Below are positions 5,441 to 54,474 of a stretch of 64,000 nt of DNA, piece after piece (position 1 is the first letter of the stretch; each line of letters opens with the position of its first letter). The translations under genes and the position numbers were made by a program. The notes beneath the pieces are model-generated. The model was not told the DNA's origin. It saw nothing but the letters and a program-made list of their open reading frames with translations, and ran no database searches. This DNA comes from Verrucomicrobiia bacterium. Lineage in GTDB: Bacteria > Acidobacteriota > Terriglobia > Terriglobales > Acidobacteriaceae. The DNA lies in the NCBI GenBank assembly GCA_035567035.1, contig DATMPO010000092.1, forward strand, positions 15,168-79,167, in the 5' to 3' direction.

Positions 5441-6694
5441 CTACATAGTAGCAGAGATGCCCTGGCAACAGGCAAGAATTTCTTCTTCCGTGAGACAGCG
5501 GTCGGAGGACTTGGCCCGTTGGAAAATACGGTCCACAAGATCGGGCCCGGGGACCATGCCGCGGCGCTCCAGCCAGAAGACTACATTGGACTTTCCGCTC
5601 ATGGGACCGATCTCAATGATCTGTTCCAGGCCGAAATAATGGGAAGGAACGCCGGAATAAACCGTGTTCGCCAGCTCGATGTCGCCTTTCTTGAAGGCCT
5701 TAATCACTGCCGCGGCGTGCACTCCGGTGGCCGTGCGGAACGCATCGTCGCCAAACACCGGATAGTTGCGCGGTATGGGCACGCCGGTCGCCGTGGAGAC
5801 AGTGACGCAGTACTCTTTAAGCCTGGTCAGGTCCTGGTCTCTCCATGGCGGTGCGCCCATGAGCTTGAGGTTGACCAGCATCTGGTCCATCTGGGTATTG
5901 CCTACGCGTTCGCCGATTCCCAGCGCTGTACCGTGGACGCAGTTCGCCCCCGCGGCCAGCGCGGCAAGGGAATTGGCGACGGCTAGTCCGCGATCGGAGT
6001 GTCCATGCCAGTCCAGGCGGATGTTTTGTCCGGAAGGCTTGACTACTTCTTCGATTACAAAATGAATCAGTGCCTGGACGCCGCTGGGCGTTGCGTGTCC
6101 GACCGTGTCACACACCACGATGGCCGTGGCGCCGCAGTTGATCGCGGCGGTGTAGAGCAGCTTGACGGTCTCCGGATCGCAGCGGGACGTATCTTCAGTC
6201 ACGTACATGACTTCCAGCCCGAGCGAGCGGGCGAAGGTCACCGCCTTCTCCGTGGTGCGCAGAAGGAAATCGGTGGTCCAGTCTTCGGTGTAGCGTCGAA
6301 TGGGGCTGGAACCCAGGAACGCGGCGACTTCGATCGCCATTCCCACGCGCTGGGAAATTTCAGCTACCGGCCGAATGTCATTTTCAAGAGTGCGCGCGGC
6401 GCAATTGGGCTTGATTTTGAGCTTGCAGGAGGCTATCTCGCGGGCCAGTCGTTCCACGTCCGCGACCGCTCGCGGGCCGGCGCCAGGCAGGCCGATATCA
6501 ACCATGTTGATACCGAGGGCCTCCATCAGATGAAGGAGCTTGATTTTGTCGTCAATGGATGGGTCCTGGACGGAAGGAGATTGCAGACCATCGCGCAGTG
6601 ATTCGTCGTTCAGGAGCACGGGTTGCGCGACGGCGTATCCCGGTTTTGGCGCCGTGTTCCAGTCGTAGATGAGGTGCGAATGCTTGGAATCCAC
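5441..6694 (-). CDS. HMGL-like 2-isopropylmalate/homocitrate synthase family protein lacking the LeuA C-terminal regulatory domain
   Basis: 417 aa. Motifs LNDESLRDGLQSPS, metal site WHGHSDRGLAVANSLAAL, GIGERVGN. Confidence 0.7.
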   Translation of the reverse strand: MDSKHSHLIYDWNTAPKPGYAVAQPVLLNDESLRDGLQSPSVQDPSIDDKIKLLHLMEALGINMVDIGLPGAGPRAVADVERLAREIASCKLKIKPNCAARTLENDIRPVAEISQRVGMAIEVAAFLGSSPIRRYTEDWTTDFLLRTTEKAVTFARSLGLEVMYVTEDTSRCDPETVKLLYTAAINCGATAIVVCDTVGHATPSGVQALIHFVIEEVVKPSGQNIRLDWHGHSDRGLAVANSLAALAAGANCVHGTALGIGERVGNTQMDQMLVNLKLMGAPPWRDQDLTRLKEYCVTVSTATGVPIPRNYPVFGDDAFRTATGVHAAAVIKAFKKGDIELANTVYSGVPSHYFGLEQIIEIGPMSGKSNVVFWLERRGMVPGPDLVDRIFQRAKSSDRCLTEEEILACCQGISATM

Positions 6695-9293: not shown

Positions 9294-11402
9294 ATGTCTG
9301 TAGCTCTATTGCTTAGAGGTTTGCATCGCACGACTATATTCGCAGTTTGCTTGTCACTTTCCATGATGGGGCAGCAGGCGGGCGCACAACTCCAGCCGGT
9401 TTCCGCTCCCTCCGACCCGGGGGCCAGCACCGCTGCGCAGAGCGGAACACAATCACAAACACCGGCTCCATTGCCGAGTGCGCCGGAGCCAAAAGCGTCG
9501 TCTTCGGACAAACCGCTGAATGGCGAGAAGGGCGTGGGGTATTTCCCCAACCCCCTGGCGCCCTACCGTCCTCAGCTTGCACCGGCGGCAGTACTTACGA
9601 GTCTGCCGAAACTCGAAAGCATGATCCAGAACGGCAAGATCATGTTGTCCATGAACGATGCCGTCGCGCTGGCCCTTGCCGACAACCTGGACATCGCGAT
9701 AGCGCGCTATAACCTTCCGATCGCGGACACCGACCTCCTGCGGACAAAAGCCGGATCTTCCACCTTCGGTGCGCCCAGCGGACTTGTGACGGGCACTCCT
9801 GGCGGAGGCGGCATCGCTGCAACAGCAGTGGGCGGCTCCACTGCCGGGGCAGCCGGTGTGGGCGCGGGCGCCAGCGGCGTGGTCCAGTCCAGCCTGGGCG
9901 CCGGCCCTAATCTTGATTCCCGCGACCCTGACCTGAGGGGTGCCCTGAATTTCGAGCATGCGGTTGTACCCTCGAGTAATACCTTCCTTACTGGCGGTGC
10001 GGCATCCACGTTACAGAACACAACCACCGCGAACTTCACATACACTCAGGGTTTTGCTCCTGGTACGCTGCTGACGGTTACATACGATAACCTGCGGCAA
10101 GCCACGAACTTCCTGACCTTGAGCCCGCAATTGCAGCAGACCTTCCGTGTTTCAGTCCGGCAACATCTCTTGCAGGGCTTCGGGATGGCCCCCAACCAAC
10201 GCTTCATCGTCATCGCAAAGAACGACAAGAGAATCACGGAAGAAGGCTTTCGCCAGCAGATCATCTCCACCGTGGCCCAAATCCAGGACATCTACTGGGA
10301 CCTGGTTGCCGCGTTCGAAGACGTAAAAGTAAAGGAGCAGTCGCTGGCCCTGTCCCAGAAGACGCTCTCCGACAACAAGAAGCAGGTGGAGATTGGCACG
10401 CTTGCGCCGATTGAGATTGTGCGCGCCCAGAGCCAGGTGGCCCTGGACGAGCAAAACCTGCTTACCGCGCAGACCACCCTGGAACTCCAGCAACTCTTCA
10501 TCAAGAACGCGATCACTCGCGACATGAAGCCCGGTTCGCTGCTCATGGAAGCCCAGGTAGTCCCCACCGACACAGTCGTGGTCCCGGAACAGGAAGCACC
10601 CGTGAAGGTTGAAGACCTGATCCAGACGGCGCTGGCCAACCGTCCTGACTATAGGCAGCAGAAGATTCAGATGGAGAACCGCCTGATCAGCATCAAAGGC
10701 GCGAACAACGCCCTGCTGCCGACAGTGGATCTCATTGGTTTCTACGGCTCCGCTAGTCTCGCCGGTGATGTCCGGTTGCCGTGCGCGGTGATCGATCCGA
10801 TCAACGGGAATTTGCCGCGAGGATGTTCGCCCGGGGCCCCGCCGACCGGTTTCAGCCATGGATTCGGAAATTTGTTTAACTCCACGGCGCCGGACAAGGG
10901 CGTGGCCATTTCGATTGATATTCCGATTCGAAACCGCGCGGCACAGGCCACGCAGATACGCTCTCAGTTGGAATACCGGCAGGCGGAGCTGAGCATCAAG
11001 CAATTCGAAGGCGGGGTGGCCATCGTTGTCCGCAACGACCAGTTTGCTCTGGAGCAGGACCGGGCCCGTGTGGCTGCCGCGCGTGAAGCCATGCAACTGG
11101 CTGCCCAGACGCTGGATGCCGAACAGAAAAAGTACGCCCTGGGTGCTTCGACTTATTTCAATGTATTGTCCGACCAATCCGCTTTGGCGACGGCCGAGGA
11201 GAATGTGGTGTCCGCGGAAATCGCCTACGCCAAACAACGTGTACTCCTGGACCGCGACACAGGGCTGACGCTGGACCACAACAACATCAAGCTGGACGAG
11301 GCGCTTTCGGGCATCATCACGACGCAACCGAACGTGCCCGGCCTGGGCCGCAATACGTTCCTGGAACAGAAGCCCGGAGCGCCTCCCAAGCAGATGCACT
11401 AA
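9294..11402 (+). CDS. TolC-family outer-membrane efflux protein with long low-complexity N-terminal region
   Basis: 702 aa with signal peptide. Two OEP-type repeats (SMNDAVALALADNLDIAIARYN, LEYRQAELSIKQFE, AEIAYAKQRVLLD). Ala/Ser/Pro/Gln-rich first ~90 aa and a Gly/Ala-rich insert. Confidence 0.75.
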   Translation: MSVALLLRGLHRTTIFAVCLSLSMMGQQAGAQLQPVSAPSDPGASTAAQSGTQSQTPAPLPSAPEPKASSSDKPLNGEKGVGYFPNPLAPYRPQLAPAAVLTSLPKLESMIQNGKIMLSMNDAVALALADNLDIAIARYNLPIADTDLLRTKAGSSTFGAPSGLVTGTPGGGGIAATAVGGSTAGAAGVGAGASGVVQSSLGAGPNLDSRDPDLRGALNFEHAVVPSSNTFLTGGAASTLQNTTTANFTYTQGFAPGTLLTVTYDNLRQATNFLTLSPQLQQTFRVSVRQHLLQGFGMAPNQRFIVIAKNDKRITEEGFRQQIISTVAQIQDIYWDLVAAFEDVKVKEQSLALSQKTLSDNKKQVEIGTLAPIEIVRAQSQVALDEQNLLTAQTTLELQQLFIKNAITRDMKPGSLLMEAQVVPTDTVVVPEQEAPVKVEDLIQTALANRPDYRQQKIQMENRLISIKGANNALLPTVDLIGFYGSASLAGDVRLPCAVIDPINGNLPRGCSPGAPPTGFSHGFGNLFNSTAPDKGVAISIDIPIRNRAAQATQIRSQLEYRQAELSIKQFEGGVAIVVRNDQFALEQDRARVAAAREAMQLAAQTLDAEQKKYALGASTYFNVLSDQSALATAEENVVSAEIAYAKQRVLLDRDTGLTLDHNNIKLDEALSGIITTQPNVPGLGRNTFLEQKPGAPPKQMH

Positions 11403-40919: not shown

Positions 40920-41230
40920 GCTAACAGGGAAAATAACAGGGGAGAACGCGAGCGCTTGGATACTCCAGACATGCAAAACCTCGATTCCACGGGCCTTTCG
41001 TGAACCTTTTTCCCGGACGGAGTCGATTCGTAACAGGGAGCGAACAGGGAAGGAACAGGGAAGGAACAGGGGGGAATCGCCGTGATCGCACGTGATCGCC
41101 GTCATCGGAGCCATTTGCTATTTGCCAATTGCTTCTTTCTGGCTGATTGCTGACTTGCTTTCTTCCGATCTGCGTCATCTGCGTTATCAGCGGTATGTTT
41201 TTCTGGCTTTTGTTTTTTGCCATTCGCTTG
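40920..41230. repeat. Composite patch of short tandem/degenerate repeats
   Basis: AACAGGGA(A/G) units (40923-40948, 41031-41072), GTGATCGC x2 plus GTCATCGG (41082-41108), a fragment of the GCAAATAGCAAAT MITE arm (41111-41158), and CTGCGTCAT/CTGCGTTAT/CAGCGGTAT (41167-41193). Confidence 0.7.
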
Positions 41231-41345: not shown

Positions 41346-41567
41346 TTAAACCCGATTCGAATCCCACGCCGGCGGCCCAAGGGGTTCGCGATGGCTCGCG
41401 ATTCCCGCCTCCACGTCCTTGGCAAAATCCTCGTCCAGAGTGGCCGTCGAGCCATGCTCCCGCGCCACGCGCAATGACTCAGACAGCAAGCGCACGGAAG
41501 GCTCGACCGGATGAACCACGGCCACAGGAAGGCCAAACAACCAAGAAACTCTATCTCCGACAGGCTC
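41346..41567 (-). pseudogene. Possible remnant of an AbrB/SpoVT-type antitoxin C-terminal half
   Basis: Frame open from stop at 41568-41570. GDRVSWLFGLPVAVVHPVEPS...LDEDFAKDVEAGIASHREPL resembles VapB/MazE-type tails. No N-terminal half, no ATG, no RBS. Confidence 0.25.
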
Positions 41568-41790
41568 TCAGGCCGTCCCCATTTTTCTTGGTGAACGTCC
41601 CGTCTGTCCCCGTCGGTCCCCGCAGTTGGCGAAATCGCGCCTTTATTGAGTCACCAGTTTCACCGATGTAGATAAGCCCCACTTGACCGTGGCAGCGAAG
41701 CCGATATAGGCCAGGACTATCTGCACCTCTTACCTCGTCCAATCGGTGCCACTCAGACCATGCGTGCTTTTCCCACGATGCCGACTGCAC
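41551..41790 (-). pseudogene. Truncated GIY-YIG nuclease-domain fragment
   Basis: PGLYRLRCHGQVGLIYIGETGDSIKARFRQL matches the GIY...YIG...R motif order. The reading frame then runs into GGGGAC-type repeats (41576-41622) and stops. GTG-only start. Confidence 0.45.
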
Positions 41791-41824
41791 GTCATCTGAG
41801 ATCGGGCATCGCGAGAAACCCTGC

Positions 41825-42418
41825 TTACCGGCCCGGCCTGGCGGCCTTGCGTTTGTCTTTTTCAGCTATCAGTAGCCCGCCCAGGCTCCAGAGGAATTTG
41901 TCGAGTTGCTTGAAGGTGACTGAAGTCAGGCCGTAGAAGGTGCGAAAAGCCGTTACCACTTTGACGAACTGCTGATACGAATAGCTCCCACGACGGTAGG
42001 TTGTGAAGTGGTCTTGCTTTTTGTACGACCAAAGACATTCATCGACATAGCGGTCATATAGGGGGTAAGCGGTGGGGTTGTGCCAACTGCAAAACTTCGA
42101 CCCAAAGGAAAAGTATTTTTCCTTGAGTACGCCACAGTTGATGATGTCATCGACCACAGCGGATTTGCCTTCAGCGAGGGCCGCGTCGATGTGAAGTCCC
42201 GTTATGTGGCGCGCAACGGTGTCAACATACTTCTTAGGAATTCCTGCGCCGTAGAGGTTATTGACCGCCACAACCTTTAGCAGGACGTGGGAGTTCTCGG
42301 CGTTGTGAGGAAAGGCGCGCAGGAGTTGCCCGAGTGCCTCCTCGATCACTCGGTACTCGCTGTTGAATTTATCGCCTTCAGCGTTGACGAGTTCGACAGT
42401 TGGAGGCGGCAGCAGCAC
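41825..42418 (-). CDS. Hypothetical protein (197 aa), no confident family assignment, possibly decaying
   Basis: The ORF contains no Met codon. The only start option is GTG at 42418, without a Shine-Dalgarno. About 40% GC in a sampled line. FGSKFCSWHNPTAYPLYDRYVDECLW and KQLDKFLWSLG segments are the most conserved-looking parts. Confidence 0.4.
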   Translation of the reverse strand: MLLPPPTVELVNAEGDKFNSEYRVIEEALGQLLRAFPHNAENSHVLLKVVAVNNLYGAGIPKKYVDTVARHITGLHIDAALAEGKSAVVDDIINCGVLKEKYFSFGSKFCSWHNPTAYPLYDRYVDECLWSYKKQDHFTTYRRGSYSYQQFVKVVTAFRTFYGLTSVTFKQLDKFLWSLGGLLIAEKDKRKAARPGR

Positions 42419-42876: not shown

Positions 42877-43608
42877 TTAGTTTTCCTCGTTGTCACTGTC
42901 GTCGCTGTCTTGCTCCGTACCAGTGGCGGTCGGCGGCTTCTTCGGTTTGACGACCTTGCCGGTCTCGTAGAACGTGGTCAGGGACGCGACATACTCCTCA
43001 GGAGCTATCGGATTCTCGCCCAGCTTTTCGGCAAATTTGCGGCCAGGATGCAGAACGTCCCACGCCGAGCGGTATTGATCTTTGCGCCGCACGCCGGGGT
43101 CTTTATTGCCGAATCCGTCTATCACTAGATTCCAGACGGGACGAAATTGCTCGATGAGCATGTTTTCCCCAAGGGGGATAAAAATCTCGTCCACGACCAG
43201 CGCGCGGAACGTGAAATCACCGACCTTCAGGTCCTTGGCCTCTTCGATGGAGGTGTAGTGCTGGCCGATCCGATCGCGTAGCGCCTTGCCTCTCATGGCG
43301 CTGTCGTCATCGGTGAAGCCTCCTTTGCGCCCACCTTTCGGGATCGCCTTGCCGATGTAAATTGGTTGGTTGAACCTGCCTTTCGCATTTTGCTCAGCGA
43401 TAGGCCCGTAGAGGGGGAAGTCCCCGGTGTAGTAGATGATGTAGACCCCTGCTCCACCCAGATCATCAGTCTTGGACATTGGGCGCGGTTCTTGATCCAG
43501 GATCGCACGCACGATGCTTTCCGCGAGATTCCTTTTTTGGAGCGGGTTGTATGGTCTATCGTGGTTCAACGATTCCTCGCGCGCATTATTTTTTTTCGGG
43601 CGCCACAT
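42877..43608 (-). CDS. Eco29kI-family (GIY-YIG) type II restriction endonuclease
   Basis: 243 aa. GAGVYIIYYTGDFPLYGPI, PIYIGKAIPKGGRKGG, IDGFGNKDPGVRRKDQYRSAWDVLHPGR match the RE_Eco29kI pattern as remembered. Acidic tail DSDDSDNEEN. Start overlaps the dcm 3' end by 23 nt. Confidence 0.7.
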   Translation of the reverse strand: MWRPKKNNAREESLNHDRPYNPLQKRNLAESIVRAILDQEPRPMSKTDDLGGAGVYIIYYTGDFPLYGPIAEQNAKGRFNQPIYIGKAIPKGGRKGGFTDDDSAMRGKALRDRIGQHYTSIEEAKDLKVGDFTFRALVVDEIFIPLGENMLIEQFRPVWNLVIDGFGNKDPGVRRKDQYRSAWDVLHPGRKFAEKLGENPIAPEEYVASLTTFYETGKVVKPKKPPTATGTEQDSDDSDNEEN

Positions 43609-44776
43609 CGATCGATTTTGCTCGGAGCGTTCCGGCTACCGACGCCGCGATCCCTTCGGCAAGCCGGACCGGCACCGCATTGCCCAATTGACGCATGGCC
43701 TCTGTCCAAGCTCCGCGGAAAGTATAGTCGTCCGGGAATGTCTGGAGCCGTGCCGCCTCTCGCACGGTGAAATACCGCACGGATCCATCCACGCGCGCAA
43801 GCATGTTTTCCCCGCCGGGCACGCCGTGATCGCCCGCCTTGAGTGTTTTCGCGGGCTCGTCGAGCGGACTGCCAGTGTGACCGGGGTAGGCCCGCGCACC
43901 GGGATTGAAGGTGTGGTTCGGAATTTCGCACCGCAGATTTCTCTCTGGGTCCGGTAAATCTCCGATCGCGTCCCGCACTGTCACCCATGGCAACTTGCCG
44001 GCGTCGAACAAGTAGTCTGTGCGGAGTCTTTCAACGCGCGACGCTAGGCGCTCAGTAAGCTTCGGCCGTTGCTGCCTGCCAACCTTGTGTCGATCCCAAT
44101 ACTCGCCGGTTATCCATTGCGAGCGCAGCAAAGTACTCTCCGAGTACTGGCCCTCCGGGAAGCTCCATTCCACGCCGAGATCGGAACGGAATCCGACGAG
44201 AAACACGCGCTCGCGGCGCTGGGGCACTCCGTAATTAGCGGCGTTGAGCAGCCGAAAGACCACGTTGTATTCCGTTCGATCCCGCATCGATGTGTGGTAC
44301 TTTTCAAGCCGCGCCCGGTGCTCCCTCCAAGTTTCAGACTTGCGGTGTATAAAACTCGGATGCGTGAGCTGCAAATGGATGTATTCGAAATAGTCGGCGA
44401 ACGATTCCCGCAACAGGCCCTTGACATTCTCGAAGATGAGCGCCTTCGGCCGCAATTCGCGCACCGCGCGCACAGCTTCGGGAAACATATCGCGCTTATC
44501 CATGTAACCGCGGTGCTTCCCGCCAAGTGAGAACGGTTGGCACGGAGGCCCGCCGGACACCACCATGACATCGTTGAGCCTACCGTAGTCGAATTTCTTG
44601 ACATCGCCCTCGTAGAGCGGCCATTCCTCGACGGATCGTATCCGGTGCCGTTGGTTTTCACGGAATGTCTCGCAGGCGTCGTGATCCCACTCGATCACCG
44701 CAGCGTGATGAAATCCCGCGTTCGACATGCCGATCGCGAGCCCCCCGGCACCGGCGAACAATTCAACACTCCGCAT
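43586..44776 (-). CDS. dcm: DNA (cytosine-5)-methyltransferase
   Basis: 396 aa. ELFAGAGGLAIG (motif I), GGPPCQPFSLGGK (motif IV), ENVKGL (VI), QRRERVFLVG (VIII), GNAVPV (X). Confidence 0.95.
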   Translation of the reverse strand: MRSVELFAGAGGLAIGMSNAGFHHAAVIEWDHDACETFRENQRHRIRSVEEWPLYEGDVKKFDYGRLNDVMVVSGGPPCQPFSLGGKHRGYMDKRDMFPEAVRAVRELRPKALIFENVKGLLRESFADYFEYIHLQLTHPSFIHRKSETWREHRARLEKYHTSMRDRTEYNVVFRLLNAANYGVPQRRERVFLVGFRSDLGVEWSFPEGQYSESTLLRSQWITGEYWDRHKVGRQQRPKLTERLASRVERLRTDYLFDAGKLPWVTVRDAIGDLPDPERNLRCEIPNHTFNPGARAYPGHTGSPLDEPAKTLKAGDHGVPGGENMLARVDGSVRYFTVREAARLQTFPDDYTFRGAWTEAMRQLGNAVPVRLAEGIAASVAGTLRAKSIDVAPEKK

Positions 44777-45215
44777 TGAGAAACCTCCTTATCCTTGACT
44801 GCAGGCGCGCTGCGTCCTTAACATGGCACTCCCAAATCGTGAGCACCTTCCATCCCTGTTTCGCCAGGGTGCGCTTAACTCTTCGATCACGTATCTTATT
44901 ACCTTCGAGTTTCGGAACCCAGAAATCCAGCCGAGACTTGGGCAACCGAGCCAGCGCACAAGCCGCATGCCGATGCCAGAAGCACCCATGAACGAAGATA
45001 ACCTTTCGCGCCTTTCTGAAAACGAGGTCCGGGTGACCCGGTAAATCCTTCGCGTGAAGCCTGTATCGGTATCCAAGGGCGAAAACAAGCTTGCGAACGA
45101 ACAACTCCGGTCGCGAGTTCTTCGAACGGACTCGCCCCATGATCTCCGATCTCTCTGCAGGAGAAAGACTGTCCACACGCTCTACGCTCCTTGTGAGCCG
45201 CCAAAAAGCGGCCAT
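44763..45215 (-). CDS. vsr: Very-short-patch repair endonuclease
   Basis: 150 aa. RSEIMGRVRSKNSRPE, PGHPDLVF, IFVHGCFWHRH, NKIRDRR. 14-nt overlap with the dcm start. Confidence 0.9.
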   Translation of the reverse strand: MAAFWRLTRSVERVDSLSPAERSEIMGRVRSKNSRPELFVRKLVFALGYRYRLHAKDLPGHPDLVFRKARKVIFVHGCFWHRHAACALARLPKSRLDFWVPKLEGNKIRDRRVKRTLAKQGWKVLTIWECHVKDAARLQSRIRRFLNAEC

Positions 45216-45361
45216 TTGCCTGAGATATATTGCTCAGTCGCCTCGCGAACTACCCACGCGAGCGAAACCTTCTTTTCCTTGGCAATGGCTTCGAGCGTCT
45301 CGTAAATATCAGGTGGAAAGCTGATCGATGCGCGAACTGCGGCAGGGCTTTGGGTCTTCAT
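45182..45361 (-). CDS. Ribbon-helix-helix (CopG/Arc/MetJ) protein, 59 aa, first gene of the R-M operon (not in ORF track)
   Basis: Hand translation: MKTQSPAAVRASISFPPDIYETLEAIAKEKKVSLAWVVREATEQYISGKWPLFGGSQGA. GGGAGAG about 10 nt upstream of the ATG at 45361. Beta-strand/helix/helix pattern of the RHH family. Overlaps the vsr start by 34 nt. Confidence 0.7.
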   Translation of the reverse strand: MKTQSPAAVRASISFPPDIYETLEAIAKEKKVSLAWVVREATEQYISGKWPLFGGSQGA

Positions 45362-45446: not shown

Positions 45447-45484
45447 AAGGATACTTCAGGCTGCCCCAATCGGCCTACCTGAAG
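45446..45484 (-). terminator. Probable terminator of the TIR gene
   Basis: CTTCAGG / CCTGAAG 7-bp stem (45454-45460 / 45478-45484) followed on the minus strand by UAUCCUUUUAAGG. Begins 25 nt after the TIR stop. Confidence 0.4.
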
Positions 45485-45508
45485 TCGGGTTGCGGAAAGC
45501 GACCAGAT

Positions 45509-46501
45509 TCAGGCCTTGGGAGACTTTGGTGGGGTGGCCGGCCGAAGCAATTTTTTCTGCGCTGACTCCTTCCACCACCCCTCGACGGATTCAAATTTTG
45601 CGACCACCTCATTGCCCACAAGAACAACGACTTGACCTATGGCGGTTTCGGCGGCGACTGTCCCTTCTACTCTCTTAATCTTCGAATCACCAACAAGTTT
45701 CACATAGAACGTTGCCGTGGGGCCTCGCGGAGGTGGTGGTGGTGGTGGGCTCGGAAGCAGCTGGTCAGGTCTTACACCCTTAAGTAATTCGACTAACGAC
45801 GGTATGAAGTCTTTGAGATCCAGGGCATACTTATCCATCCATTCCGATTGCTTTCGACTATTTGCCGTTGCGCGAGTTAACTCAAGGACCTCAGCAATCA
45901 TATCGTCGATTGAGGGTAGCGGTTTTGCCAGCTCCTCGGACTGGGGCATTGCTCCAAGATGTGATTCCAGGTCCGGCCACATTTTGTCGAAGATTATGTC
46001 TAAGTGTTCCTTTGGAAGAACGTCTTGGCCGATGGCTCTGTTAATCGTATGCATCAGCTTTCTGGTGTCGTCCTGCTCGGGCTTGGTGCGCTGAAACATG
46101 CCCAACGGGCCTCTAAGATGTTGGATCTGGAGACCGGCTAAGAGGTAAGTGCAGATCCTGCTCTTGTCGTCTACTTCCTTGGCGAGAACTCCCGCCTCAT
46201 ATGAGATCCACGACGAATCCCGATTCTCGGGAGTAAGGAAGAGTACGCCCACCTTCGTTCCAGTAAGCGCCTTCTTTATCTCATCCAATCCCACTGTTCC
46301 TTTATCGATATCTATATCAGACAGCCATGGCTTCGCTCGATGGAGAACCTTCGGCATCCAATCACGGAAAAACTTCGCCACGTATAGGCTTCTCTCCCCT
46401 GACCAGGAGAGGAAAACGTTGTGCATTTGGGCGGCTTCTCGATTGGATTTGGGCATGTTTCGCTGCATTCTATCAAAGGTGACTTTCTGCTTTTGCATCA
46501 A
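45509..46501 (-). CDS. TIR-domain protein with helical middle region, poly-Pro linker and unassigned C-terminal domain
   Basis: VFLSWSGERSLYVAKFFRDWMPKVL...PWLSDIDIDKGTV...VGVLFLTPENRDSSWISYEAGVL follows the TIR order (compare plant VFLSFRGEDTR and S.W...E). Likely start is the ATG at 46426 (MHNVFLSW) or 46456. PPPPPPP at residues ~262-270, then a beta-rich ~60 aa tail. Confidence 0.65.
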   Translation of the reverse strand: MMQKQKVTFDRMQRNMPKSNREAAQMHNVFLSWSGERSLYVAKFFRDWMPKVLHRAKPWLSDIDIDKGTVGLDEIKKALTGTKVGVLFLTPENRDSSWISYEAGVLAKEVDDKSRICTYLLAGLQIQHLRGPLGMFQRTKPEQDDTRKLMHTINRAIGQDVLPKEHLDIIFDKMWPDLESHLGAMPQSEELAKPLPSIDDMIAEVLELTRATANSRKQSEWMDKYALDLKDFIPSLVELLKGVRPDQLLPSPPPPPPPRGPTATFYVKLVGDSKIKRVEGTVAAETAIGQVVVLVGNEVVAKFESVEGWWKESAQKKLLRPATPPKSPKA

Positions 46502-46730: not shown

Positions 46731-47117
46731 TCAGCCCTGCTCGCGCGCTGAGGCGATGAATTCTTCCATCTGGCGCAGGTATTTTTCGAATGCTTTGCGG
46801 CCTTGCGGCGTGAGTTTGTATTCGGTGCGGGGGACGCGGCCTTCGAAGCCCTTCTTGCAGCGGACGTAGTCGGCTTCTTCCAGTTTGCGGGCGTGGACGC
46901 TCAGGTTACCGTCAGAGGTTTTTAAGACGCGCTTCAGATCGTTGAAGGTGAGGGAATCGTTGACCGCGAGCGCGCTGACAATGCCCAGGCGTATGCGCTC
47001 GTAGATCAGGCGGTCGAGCTCCGGCAGTTCGCGCGGCGGGTGCGCCGGCCGGTGGCGGGCGTCGCGCACTTTGGCTTGATGGACTGTTTTTTCCGCCGGT
47101 TTGAGTTTGGCTTTCAT
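46731..47117 (-). CDS. Winged-helix (HTH_34/MarR-like) transcriptional regulator
   Basis: 128 aa. ERIRLGIVSALAVNDSLTFNDLKRVLKTSDGNLSVHARKLEEADYV. Confidence 0.7.
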   Translation of the reverse strand: MKAKLKPAEKTVHQAKVRDARHRPAHPPRELPELDRLIYERIRLGIVSALAVNDSLTFNDLKRVLKTSDGNLSVHARKLEEADYVRCKKGFEGRVPRTEYKLTPQGRKAFEKYLRQMEEFIASAREQG

Positions 47118-47118
47118 G

Positions 47119-47733
47119 TTAACCGCCGAACCTCCTTGCTATCAGTAAGCCGAACACCACGTGCAGGCCGCCGAATCCCACGGCCATGAACACGTTGCCC
47201 CAGTCGGGAAACAACAATGCTCCGGCGCCGGCCAGCATGAAAGACACGCCCATTACCGGAACGATCGGGACGGAAAACGCTCCGCCGGTCATCACGCCTG
47301 TTCCGTACAGAAGAAGCCAGGTGCCGGGAAGCATCCGCGCCAATCCTGAATTGTAAAGCACCGCGGTGAGCACTGCTCCGGCGACGATCGGCGGCAACGA
47401 CGTGCGGACAAACTTGCTGCCCGGTCCGCTGGTCAGCGGCATGCCGGCCCGCTGCGCTTTTCTCTGCGTGGCCACGAGCGCGATCGACATGGCCAGTACA
47501 CCTTCGCCCAGCCACACAGCAAGCCAGATGGCAGGCGTGGTTTGACGGGCCGCCACCCACGCAGCCGCGAGGGCGGTGGCGCCCATGGCCACCTGTCCCC
47601 AGCCGGGGACGGCGGTGAAGGATGCGGAACGCTCCATGGTCTCGCGAATGAAGCGGATGTCCTCCAGGGCGTTATGCGGCACAGGCTGCGGCCGCGCGCG
47701 AAAACGCCGCCGCTGGCTCCGGTGTTCGAGCAT
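47119..47733 (-). CDS. Integral membrane protein, co-transcribed with the winged-helix regulator
   Basis: ATG 47733 (MLEHRSQRRR). The TTG at 47796 lies inside the MITE arm. 5-6 TM helices. 1-nt gap to the regulator gene. Confidence 0.55.
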   Translation of the reverse strand: MLEHRSQRRRFRARPQPVPHNALEDIRFIRETMERSASFTAVPGWGQVAMGATALAAAWVAARQTTPAIWLAVWLGEGVLAMSIALVATQRKAQRAGMPLTSGPGSKFVRTSLPPIVAGAVLTAVLYNSGLARMLPGTWLLLYGTGVMTGGAFSVPIVPVMGVSFMLAGAGALLFPDWGNVFMAVGFGGLHVVFGLLIARRFGG

Positions 47734-47781
47734 GAGGGAAGGATAGGACGGTGGTGCGGTGGAGTCAAGTACTTTGTCAGA

Positions 47782-47953
47782 AAAAGCAAATAGCAAATAG
47801 CAATTGGCAATTAGCCAAACCTGGTTATTTTAAACCGCAAAGGTCGCGAAGGACGCAAAGGGAAGAACGGATCAGCCACGAATCAGCACGAATAGGCAAG
47901 TGTACTTGAGTTTGCTCTGGCTGATTGCCAATTGCCATTTGCTATTTGCTTTT
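47782..47953. mobile_element. MITE-like element with 36-nt terminal inverted repeats (34/36 identical)
   Basis: Left arm AAAAGCAAATAGCAAATAGCAATTGGCAATTAGCCA. Revcomp of right arm AAAAGCAAATAGCAAATGGCAATTGGCAATCAGCCA. About 100-nt core with CGCAAAGG/CGCGAAGG units. No ORF. Confidence 0.75.
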
Positions 47954-54374: not shown

Positions 54375-54474
54375 AAAGCAAATAGCAAATGGCAATTAGC
54401 CAAAGCAGTCCGACTGCCTTGATAGACTGGTCTGGACAATTGCTAATTGCTAATTGCTCAATTCGCTAAGTTGC
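54375..54474. repeat. Degenerate copy of the GCAAATAGCAAAT/GCAATTAGC MITE family
   Basis: AAAGCAAATAGCAAATGGCAATTAGCCAAAG on the left. CAATTGCTAATTGCTAATTGCTCAATTCGCTAAGTTGC (inverse orientation) on the right. Confidence 0.6.

What the first reader, a model, noticed from the sequence alone, without database searches (positions are those of the whole stretch)
45509..46501. Stand-alone TIR-domain protein with helical spacer, heptaproline hinge and small beta-rich C-terminal domain of unknown family
The N-terminal ~140 aa follow TIR topology (VFLSWSGERS, DIDIDKG, VGVLFLTPENRDSSWISYEAG with a candidate catalytic Glu). The remaining ~190 aa resemble nothing I can name. They comprise an acidic helical stretch (DLESHLGAMPQSEELAKPLPSIDDMIAEVLELTRA), PPPPPPP, then TATFYVKLVGDSKIKRVEGTVAAETAIGQVVVLVGNEVVAKFESVEGWWKE. 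Bacterial TIR effectors normally rely on a sensor domain or partner. This tail could be the sensor or an oligomerisation module. The gene has its own putative terminator, so it is a separate transcription unit from the R-M operon.
Basis: partly seen in the sequence, partly recalled or inferred. Interest (0 to 1): 0.7.

Follow-up and report, generated by a model that had tools for sequence, protein, structure and literature searches.

The report
Single-gene TIR protein with new tail
This is a real gene for a probable anti-phage "suicide" enzyme: its TIR domain belongs to a family already shown to protect E. coli, but here it works without that family's membrane partners and carries an undescribed small beta-barrel tail that also occurs on an unrelated TIR family and as free-standing mini-proteins in prophages.

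Summary
ORF 45509-46501 (-) is a conserved gene, probably starting at ATG 46456 (315 aa). It encodes a TIR domain with an invariant WxxxE catalytic motif, a helical spacer, a PPPPPPP hinge and a six-strand beta domain of about 52 aa.

The TIR plus first helices are not orphan. They match PADLOC "TIR-TM" (E 4e-49) and PHROG 13899 (E 7e-54). They are 41% identical to the TIR protein of the validated three-gene 2TM-1TM-TIR system of P2-like phage AC1. The two membrane partners are absent here and in all 116 related loci examined. No neighbour is conserved across 96 non-redundant loci, so this is a stand-alone gene in variable or defence regions.

The beta domain has no Pfam, PHROG or PDB match. 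It is nearly as conserved as the TIR. It recurs at the C-terminus of a second, unrelated TIR_2 family, and as free 57-59 aa ORFs at prophage ends. It resembles many small uncharacterised phage proteins in fold.

The most likely function is a one-protein abortive-infection NADase whose beta-barrel gates or senses activation. This is a new variant of a known kind, of moderate interest.

The parts
45509..46501 (-). Whole ORF (330 aa from TTG). The probable true start is ATG at 46456 (315 aa). The stop codon is 45509-45511.
   Evidence: Homologue N-termini align at M16. P0001, 100% identical, was called from M12.
46031..46423 (-). TIR domain (aa 27-157): a beta-alpha-beta flavodoxin-like fold.
   Evidence: AF2 model strands and helices 14-142 in 315-aa numbering. 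Foldseek hits to PDB TIRs at E about 3e-5. Pfam TIR_2 E 7e-4, below the gathering cut-off. PADLOC TIR-TM E 3.8e-49. PDB profile hits to TIR proteins.
46196..46210 (-). WxxxE motif (W98-I-S-Y-E102). E102 is the candidate catalytic glutamate.
   Evidence: E is invariant and W nearly invariant in 44 family members. E aligns with the Glu of the plant TIR motif SSWCLDEL in 3jrn.
45782..46030 (-). Acidic helical spacer (aa 158-240, net charge -9): a helix at aa 164-183 and a long helix at aa 198-240.
   Evidence: AF2 model H149-168 and H183-225 in 315-aa numbering, with pLDDT 56-95. Charge.
45872..45901 (-). Family-defining helix start MIAEVLELTR, with invariant E204, L206 and R210.
   Evidence: Invariant columns in A1 and A2. 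The PADLOC and PHROG profile matches extend through this motif (aa 214 and aa 220 respectively).
45719..45781 (-). Proline-rich flexible linker (aa 241-261), including PPPPPPP at 45728-45748.
   Evidence: pLDDT <50 for residues 228-240 in 315-aa numbering. Coordinates. Proline-rich but variable in length in homologues.
45560..45718 (-). C-terminal small six-strand beta domain (aa 262-314). It belongs to an undescribed family. Conserved residues are F265, K276, G280, F303, W309-W310 and E312.
   Evidence: AF2 pLDDT about 90. 51 representative proteins match at E<=1e-3. No Pfam, PHROG or PDB hit. BFVD small phage proteins match at TM 0.55-0.79.
45512..45559 (-). Unconserved basic, proline-rich tail (aa 315-330, net charge +5).
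   Evidence: 11% mean identity to homologues and pLDDT <50.
45453..45485 (-). Hairpin 24 nt after the stop codon, followed by UAUCCUUUU. It is a possible weak intrinsic terminator.
   Evidence: Fold (z -1.74). Not found by the consensus scan.

Best explanation
This is a one-gene anti-phage abortive-infection module. An N-terminal TIR NAD+-hydrolase (catalytic WxxxE, E102) is joined through an acidic helical stalk and a flexible proline hinge to a small acidic beta-barrel. In the resting cell the TIR domains are kept apart or inactive. During infection the beta-barrel, probably by a protein-protein contact, permits or drives TIR self-association through the TIR and helical core. The composite active site then forms and NAD+ is consumed, so the infected cell stops growing. 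What is shown: the gene is real and conserved; the TIR fold and catalytic motif are present; the TIR core is homologous to a validated defence TIR; there is no conserved partner gene; the beta domain recurs on two TIR lineages; and the genomic context is variable, defence-rich and mobile. What is inferred: NADase activity, the trigger, oligomerisation and the abortive outcome.
For: TIR fold and motif. The core matches PADLOC TIR-TM at E 3.8e-49 and PHROG 13899 at E 7e-54. It is 41% identical over 155 aa (E 1e-34) to the TIR protein of phage AC1. The AC1 three-gene locus protects E. coli against lambda, LF82_P8 and P2 (PMC9122126). PADLOC models confirm that the AC1 genes are 2TM-TIR, 1TM-TIR and TIR-TM. 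A relative stands alone as a moron between Q and the lysis genes of phage mEp390, next to two annotated rho-independent terminators just downstream. No neighbour is conserved in 96 non-redundant loci, and AC1 TM homologues are absent from all 116 loci. Neighbours are typical of variable, defence or mobile regions: here an RHH-Vsr-Dcm-Eco29kI R-M operon; elsewhere integrase, HipA, RES, Mrr-NACHT, SLFN/AlbA_2, DUF4238, Fic, PIN, a Ser/Thr kinase, IS200 and ArdC-like genes. The beta domain is conserved almost as well as the TIR (69% vs 74%). It is fused to a second TIR_2 family that shares no other similarity with this protein. That pattern argues for a functional link to TIR activity. [quoted passage not shown] No cyclase, ThsA, SAVED or STING partner was found by PADLOC in the flanking genes, which favours NAD+ depletion over signalling.
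Against: No member with this architecture has been tested. The window protein scores below Pfam's TIR_2 gathering cut-off (20.5 vs 28 bits). The only validated relative needs (or at least was cloned with) two membrane proteins, and its authors proposed that the TIR makes a signal for them. The TIR could therefore be a signal generator and not a depleter. Most relatives (92 of 121 ORFs) have no beta domain, only short low-complexity tails after the conserved helix. The core may thus be self-sufficient and the beta domain only an accessory. One close homologue (L004) sits among housekeeping genes. The fold matches of the beta domain are individually not significant (best E 2.5e-3 in BFVD and 0.43 in PDB).
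Confidence: 0.58

Rival explanations
1. The TIR is a signal generator and not an NAD+ depleter. It makes a nucleotide messenger, as Thoeris ThsB does and as proposed for AC1, and this acts on a membrane effector. In this window the effector would be the adjacent 4-TM protein (47119-47796), possibly with the wHTH protein (46731-47117).
For: The closest validated relative is encoded with two TM proteins, and that role was proposed for it. The same pair, an HTH_34 protein plus a roughly 220-aa multi-TM protein, lies directly next to the TIR relative in Mucilaginibacter (L006). Identities to the window proteins are 45% and 22%, with E 2e-24 and 2e-12. That is unlikely for two unrelated genomes by chance.
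Against: The pair is absent from the other 94 non-redundant loci, including all other beta-domain loci. The arrangement differs between the two cases: co-directional here and divergent in L006. The 4-TM protein has no PADLOC, Pfam or PHROG match and no similarity to AC1 2TM or 1TM.
Confidence: 0.12
2. The beta-barrel is not a phage sensor. It is a TIR-binding lid or multimerisation plug that holds the enzyme off (autoinhibition in cis). The real sensing surface lies in the TIR and helical core that all family members share.
For: The domain's recurrent fusion partner is a TIR domain in two unrelated lineages. Most family members lack it, so sensing must be possible without it. The domain is acidic, with 27 of 33 copies net negative, and it is tethered by a long flexible linker. 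The phage inhibitor Nip, which binds the SpbK TIR, is predicted to contain SH3-like domains.
Against: There is no direct evidence of contact. The AF2 model gives pTM 0.53 with no confident inter-domain packing. No sequence similarity to Nip was tested or shown.
Confidence: 0.2
3. This is not a defence gene. It is a TIR-like nucleotide- or nucleoside-processing or scaffolding protein with a housekeeping or regulatory role in Acidobacteria.
For: The Pfam score is below the cut-off. One homologue sits in a housekeeping neighbourhood. The family is abundant in soil Acidobacteriota.
Against: There is strong homology to a validated defence TIR and to phage morons. The catalytic Glu is invariant. The neighbourhoods are patchy, variable and rich in mobile elements, with pseudogenised copies: a frameshift, an IS insertion and a nonsense codon. 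Local GC is lower, 0.53 vs about 0.585.
Confidence: 0.07
4. The TIR gene is an accessory component of the adjacent RHH-Vsr-Dcm-Eco29kI restriction-modification operon.
For: It is on the same strand, with only 148 bp between the TIR stop and the RHH start. The terminator signal is weak.
Against: No other locus among the 116 examined pairs the TIR gene with an R-M system of this type. R-M systems of this type are self-contained.
Confidence: 0.03

Closest known systems
TIR protein of the 2TM-1TM-TIR system of P2-like phage AC1 (Rousset et al. 2022; DefenseFinder Rst_2TM_1TM_TIR; PADLOC models 2TM-TIR, 1TM-TIR and TIR-TM)
   Same: It has the same TIR lineage plus the first helical extension: 41% identity over 155 aa, E 1e-34. 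The window protein matches the TIR-TM profile at positions 2-193 of 293, E 3.8e-49. It occurs on mobile or defence loci.
   Different: There are no 2TM or 1TM partner genes here or in any of 116 related loci. The C-terminal about 100 profile positions are not matched. They are replaced by a long helix, a proline hinge and a beta-barrel.
mEp390_047 / PHROG 13899 (lambdoid phage moron, function unknown)
   Same: It has the same TIR and helix core: PHROG E 7e-54 and 37% identity over 192 aa. It also stands alone with no TM partners, next to two annotated terminators just downstream of the gene.
   Different: Its C-terminus is a different helical region with no beta domain. It is enterobacterial and phage-borne.
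[quoted passage not shown]
   Same: It follows the same one-polypeptide logic: a TIR effector plus a small non-catalytic domain joined by a linker. The SpbK TIR filament structure is among the Foldseek hits (9phb_A, TMt 0.66). Its mechanism is documented.
   Different: The domain order is reversed, with the sensor N-terminal and the TIR C-terminal. The sensor domain is unrelated and the TIR lineage is different.
[quoted passage not shown] 2024)
   Same: They are single-gene TIR defences whose triggers are phage portal or tail-fibre proteins.
Thoeris ThsB
   Same: It is a TIR domain with a catalytic Glu. There are weak PADLOC hits (E 0.006-0.06).
   Different: There is no ThsA or other effector nearby. 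The hit is far weaker than to TIR-TM.

Membership tests
TIR domain superfamily | Flavodoxin-like beta-alpha TIR fold | tested here: met
   The AF2 model was searched with Foldseek. The top 50 PDB hits are almost all TIR domains at E 3e-5 to 1e-3.
TIR domain superfamily | Sequence-profile match at the curated threshold (Pfam TIR_2 / TIR) | tested here: inconclusive
   The window protein scores 20.5 bits against a cut-off of 28. Family member P0065 passes with 30.9 bits. The family profile hits PDB TIR proteins at E 0.0013-0.13.
TIR domain superfamily (NADase-competent subset) | Conserved catalytic glutamate in a WxxxE context | tested here: met
   W98-x-x-x-E102 is present. E is invariant in 44 sequences and aligns with the Glu of the plant TIR motif WCLDEL.
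TIR domain superfamily (NADase-competent subset) | NAD+ hydrolase or cyclase activity | not testable with these tools
   This needs a biochemical assay.
2TM-1TM-TIR system (AC1; PADLOC TIR-TM + 2TM-TIR + 1TM-TIR) | TIR protein matching the TIR-TM model | tested here: met
   E 3.8e-49, but only profile positions 2-193 of 293 are matched. AC1 itself matches positions 1-286 at E 2.7e-118.
2TM-1TM-TIR system (AC1; PADLOC TIR-TM + 2TM-TIR + 1TM-TIR) | Adjacent 2TM-TIR protein | tested here: not met
   The flanking genes give no PADLOC hit. BLASTP and phmmer of AC1 2TM against all ORFs of 40 aa or more within 10 kb found nothing.
2TM-1TM-TIR system (AC1; PADLOC TIR-TM + 2TM-TIR + 1TM-TIR) | Adjacent 1TM-TIR protein | tested here: not met
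   Same searches as for the 2TM protein, with no hit.
Thoeris | ThsB-type TIR plus ThsA (SIR2/SLOG or TM/Macro) effector in the locus | tested here: not met
   ThsB models hit only at E 0.006-0.06. No ThsA-like hit was found among eight neighbours.
CBASS / Pycsar / type III CRISPR TIR effectors | Cyclase or Cas10 partner, and a SAVED, STING, CARF or cNMP-binding sensor fused to the TIR | tested here: not met
   There is only a marginal SAVED_TIR hit, over the TIR part (E 0.0028). No cyclase is present in the neighbourhood.
Small beta-barrel folds (SH3 / Sm / Tudor / WYL-like) for the C-terminal domain | Significant structural or profile match to a defined family | tested here: not met
   The best PDB Foldseek E is 0.43. 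The weak hits include HIV integrase CTD, SmF, DriD WYL and Tudor. There are no Pfam, PHROG or PDB-sequence hits. BFVD shows fold-alikes only among uncharacterised phage proteins.

The most novel reading that the evidence does not exclude
The C-terminal beta-barrel is a previously unrecognised, dedicated TIR-partner domain that bacteria and phages share and fight over. In cis it gates TIR assembly on at least two independent TIR lineages. The free-standing 57-59 aa copies at prophage ends, and the many fold-alike small phage ORFans, would be counter-defence proteins. They would plug or decoy the TIR enzymes, functionally like the SH3-like-domain inhibitor Nip of SpbK.
Probability: 0.12. Interest if true: 0.8.

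Novelty: new variant of a known kind. Interest (0 to 1): 0.55.

Why it matters
It shows that the TIR core of a validated three-gene phage-defence system is mostly used as a single-gene module in soil bacteria, with exchangeable C-terminal tails. It also defines a compact, well-conserved beta-barrel domain with no entry in Pfam, PHROGs or the PDB. That domain's only recurrent fusion partner is a TIR domain, and it also exists as free mini-proteins in prophages. This gives a small, tractable system of 315 aa in one gene. It can be used to ask how a bacterial TIR NADase is switched on, and whether phages carry matching mini-protein inhibitors or baits.

Tried and rejected
1. A search for a conserved partner gene. 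ORFs within 5 kb of the TIR gene in 116 loci (96 groups at 90% identity) were clustered by BLASTP. Nothing was shared beyond close relatives. TM-containing small ORFs next to the beta-domain loci are not consistent.
2. AC1 2TM and 1TM homologues. None were found in any locus.
3. 'TIR-TM' in the literature. There was no useful hit. The name was resolved instead by scanning the AC1 proteins against PADLOC.
4. Identity of the beta domain. Pfam on the window segment and on 33 diverse copies, PHROGs, a PDB sequence profile and PDB Foldseek all gave nothing significant. tblastn of a free-standing copy against 50,697 phage genomes found no match.
5. 'Split' TIR plus beta gene pairs. These turned out to be pseudogenes: a frameshift in L037/L038, an insertion in L061 and an in-frame TAA in L119. 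I rejected the idea of a two-gene version.
6. A viral-contig scan with the full-length family found no relative. A degenerate DNA pattern for YDGxxVVARF found one IMG/VR contig with a free 57-aa copy.
7. Direct repeats flanking the 41.1-47.9 kb low-GC stretch were considered as att sites. They were rejected because the motif also occurs at other intergenic sites. No tRNA gene is in the window.
8. [quoted passage not shown] No supplementary sequences are held, and mEp390_047 has no match in complete E. coli genomes.

Full report
**1. The observation**

The ORF 45509..46501 on the minus strand exists as described (330 aa from a TTG). Reading the DNA and locating the motifs confirms each of them:
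- NVFLSWSG (aa 28-35)
- WISYE (aa 98-102)
- MIAEVLELTR (aa 201-210)
- seven consecutive prolines (aa 252-258, window 45728-45748)
- the C-terminal TFYVKL...GWWKE segment (aa 264-312)

A protein search returned 50 homologues. About 23 clusters are co-linear over about 90% of the length at 60-80% identity, all from metagenomes or MAGs. In the alignment almost all homologues begin at the position of M16, so the real start is probably ATG 46456 (315 aa). Conservation by region is TIR 74%, beta domain 69%, helical spacer 50-57% and the two termini 11-17%. This is a real, selected gene with two well-conserved globular parts.

**2. Anatomy**

An AlphaFold2 model built on 44 family sequences has mean pLDDT 76.7. 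In 315-aa numbering it shows:
- a beta-alpha-beta domain at residues 14-142
- a helix at 149-168
- a long helix at 183-225
- a disordered proline-rich stretch at 228-240
- a six-strand beta domain at 248-298 with pLDDT about 90

Foldseek against the PDB returns TIR domains almost exclusively, at E 3e-5 to 1e-3: SPARTA TIR-APAZ, RPP1, RUN1, L7, SpbK filament, SARM1 and MyD88. The family profile finds PDB TIR proteins as its ten best hits. In that alignment E102 pairs with the glutamate of the plant motif SSWCLDEL. The glutamate is invariant and the tryptophan four residues before it nearly invariant in 44 sequences. This is the WxxxE arrangement known from TIR NADases (established knowledge). 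Pfam TIR_2 is matched only below the curated cut-off (20.5 vs 28 bits), although relatives such as P0065 pass it.

**3. The TIR core belongs to a known, validated family**

PADLOC model PDLC03016 'TIR-TM' matches residues 28-214 at E 3.8e-49, covering profile positions 2-193 of 293. PHROG 13899 matches residues 29-220 at E 7e-54. tblastn against phage genomes finds two relatives.

The first is mEp390_047, a lone, oppositely oriented gene between Q and the lysis cassette, with two annotated terminators lying just downstream of it. That is a classic moron position.

The second is P2AC1_00002 of P2-like phage AC1. In AC1 the TIR gene follows a 126-aa two-TM protein and a 185-aa TM protein downstream of a 2.3-kb gene that by size and position resembles the P2 replication gene A; the record annotates it only as a hypothetical protein. 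Rousset et al. 2022 cloned exactly these three genes. They showed protection against lambda, LF82_P8 and P2, and proposed that the TIR makes a messenger for the TM proteins (PMC9122126). Scanning the AC1 proteins against PADLOC gives 2TM-TIR, 1TM-TIR and full-length TIR-TM. That settles what the model name means.

The window protein and the AC1 TIR share 41% identity over 155 aa (E 1e-34), but only in the TIR and the first helix. An invariant E-x-L-x-x-x-R motif at the start of the long helix (E204, L206, R210) is common to the whole family.

**4. Stand-alone status**

I collected 116 loci, 96 groups at 90% identity:
- 6 by exact-protein look-up
- 25 from GTDB species genomes: Acidobacteriota mainly, also Planctomycetota, Myxococcota, Gemmatimonadota, an actinobacterium, a cyanobacterium and an archaeon
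- 80 from metagenomes
- the window
- four TIR-bearing loci fetched for other reasons (the two phage records L032 and L033, and L037/L038)

Clustering all neighbours within 5 kb finds no family shared beyond near-identical genomes. AC1 2TM and 1TM homologues are absent everywhere. TM-containing small ORFs next to beta-domain loci are inconsistent.

Neighbourhoods are variable and rich in defence, toxin and mobile genes. They include integrase, HipA_2, RES, Mrr_cat-NACHT, SLFN/AlbA_2, DUF4238, a serine recombinase, Fic, PIN, a Ser/Thr kinase, IS200 and ArdC-like genes. One locus is housekeeping.

In the window the gene lies in a slightly GC-poor stretch, 0.53 against about 0.585. It is upstream of a complete RHH-Vsr-Dcm-Eco29kI-type restriction-modification operon. 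The hairpin after the stop codon (45453-45485) is a possible but weak terminator.

**5. The C-terminal domain**

Modelled alone it is again confident (pLDDT about 90, six strands). Its best PDB Foldseek E-value is 0.43. The weak hits are small SH3-, Sm-, Tudor- and WYL-like barrels. Pfam, PHROGs and a PDB sequence profile give nothing.

An exhaustive HMMER search of 1.84 billion representative proteins with the domain profile found 51 proteins at E<=1e-3. They fall into three classes.

(a) Further members of this TIR family. Overall 29 of 121 family ORFs carry the domain. The rest end in short low-complexity tails or other domains.

(b) A second TIR family (P0076, P0083, P0088, P0089, P0090 and others). 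These match Pfam TIR_2 strongly (E 1e-13 to 1e-16) but not TIR-TM. They share with the window protein only the beta domain (32% identity, E 3e-5).

(c) Short ORFs of 53-110 aa.

Context look-ups showed that some apparent 'split' cases are pseudogenes: a frameshift in L037/L038, an insertion in L061 and an in-frame TAA replacing Tyr in L119. Genuine free-standing copies do exist:
- a 59-aa ORF directly after the lysozyme gene of a Cupriavidus necator prophage
- a 57-aa ORF directly after a Phage-tail_3 protein and a tailspike, at a prophage end
- an almost identical copy on an IMG/VR viral contig

Foldseek against BFVD returns dozens of 50-85 aa uncharacterised phage proteins with TM 0.55-0.79 and rmsd 1.3-2.6 A. 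The best is E 2.5e-3 at 28% identity. The domain is mostly acidic, with 27 of 33 copies net negative. That argues for protein-protein and not nucleic-acid binding.

**6. Mechanism**

The best-supported reading is a one-protein abortive-infection TIR NADase. I favour NAD+ depletion over signalling because no effector or cyclase is linked.

The beta-barrel controls activation, either as sensor of a phage protein or as a cis-acting lid. It is tethered by a flexible proline hinge to an acidic helical stalk, and it is as conserved as the catalytic domain. Its independent fusion to two TIR lineages points to a direct functional relation with TIR activity.

There are precedents for the one-protein logic. 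SpbK is a TIR plus small sensor domain activated by the portal protein, and it is inhibited by phage Nip, which binds the TIR and is predicted to contain SH3-like domains (PMC11984713). [quoted passage not shown]

NADase activity, trigger, oligomerisation and outcome are all inferred and not shown.

**7. Rivals**

(i) A signal-generating TIR acting on a membrane effector. The only support is that an HTH_34 protein plus a roughly 220-aa 4-TM protein flank the TIR gene both here and in Mucilaginibacter. The pair is missing from the other 94 groups.

(ii) The beta domain as a pure autoinhibitor or multimerisation plug. This is compatible with everything seen and is not separable from the sensor role by computation here.

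(iii) A non-defence role. This is disfavoured by homology to a validated defence protein, by phage moron relatives and by the variable contexts.

(iv) Part of the R-M operon. The linkage is not recurrent.

**8. Comparison and novelty**

The protein works like, and is homologous in its core to, the TIR of the AC1 2TM-1TM-TIR system. It fails two of that system's three defining features, because there is no 2TM and no 1TM gene. It also replaces the C-terminal third of the TIR protein. I therefore file it as a new variant of a known kind. It is a stand-alone TIR-TM-family enzyme with a coiled stalk, a polyproline hinge and an undescribed TIR-associated beta-barrel.

Interest is moderate at 0.55. 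The TIR part is unsurprising. The beta domain's distribution is a concrete, testable lead: two TIR lineages, prophage mini-proteins and phage ORFan fold-alikes.

Noticed in passing
window 46731-47796 (-) and L006 8944-9893: An HTH_34 winged-helix protein and a roughly 220-aa 4-TM protein with no family match lie directly beside the TIR gene in this window. The same pair lies beside the 31%-identical TIR relative of Mucilaginibacter sp. X4EP1. Identities to the window proteins are 45% and 22% (E 2e-24 and 2e-12). The pair is absent from the other 94 locus groups. It is unexplained: it could be an occasional partner pair or a shared insertion neighbourhood.
   Followed up: partly
window 42877-45361 (-): A complete defence operon lies immediately downstream. 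It comprises a 59-aa RHH/CopG protein (45182-45361, overlapping the vsr start), Vsr (44763-45215), a Dcm-type C5 methyltransferase (43586-44776) and an Eco29kI-family GIY-YIG restriction endonuclease (42877-43608).
   Followed up: partly
window 41551-42418 (-): There is a 79-aa ORF with a marginal GIY-YIG hit (E 0.038), possibly a gene fragment. Next to it is a 197-aa ORF with no match in Pfam, PADLOC, NCBIfam or PHROGs. Both lie at the edge of the GC-poor stretch.
   Followed up: no
window 41110-41132, 47786-47808 (-), 47920-47949, 54378-54393 (-): A heptad-like motif, GCCATTTGCTATTTGC and its variants, occurs six times at intergenic positions, against 0.06 expected. Two copies bracket the 6.8-kb low-GC segment, but others lie elsewhere. 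It is probably a genome-wide intergenic repeat and not an att site.
   Followed up: partly
L034 6001-6180, L035 1354-1533, L036 6001-6174, L124 1-174: Free-standing 57-59 aa copies of the beta domain occur at prophage ends. One follows a phage lysozyme gene in Cupriavidus necator. Another follows a Phage-tail_3 protein and a tailspike. One copy is on an IMG/VR viral contig.
   Followed up: partly
L119 1565-8330: A metagenomic locus holds four TIR_2 genes and a YEATS/pYEATS gene. One TIR-beta gene of the second family carries an in-frame TAA in place of a Tyr codon (5839-5841), which splits it into 254-aa and 68-aa ORFs.
   Followed up: partly
L037 449-1347, L038 1240-2138, L061 3201-5591: These are disrupted copies of the TIR-beta gene. 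The same frameshift is seen in two independent samples (L037 and L038). In L061 a roughly 1.6-kb insertion separates the TIR part from the beta domain.
   Followed up: partly
L010 9645-9932, L012 9720-10007, L084 868-1155, L092 77-466, L098 1015-1302: A conserved 95-aa ORF (MExFQVAHIKVQGV...) lies just upstream, on the same strand, of short-tailed TIR relatives in five locus groups. It has no PADLOC hit. It could be a lineage-specific partner.
   Followed up: no
L026, L027, L029, L031 (about 9470-10950): The planctomycete relatives carry a 100-170 aa N-terminal extension and a different conserved C-terminal domain (…SSEARTLL…GYEVADLL). This shows further modular variation around the same TIR core.
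   Followed up: no
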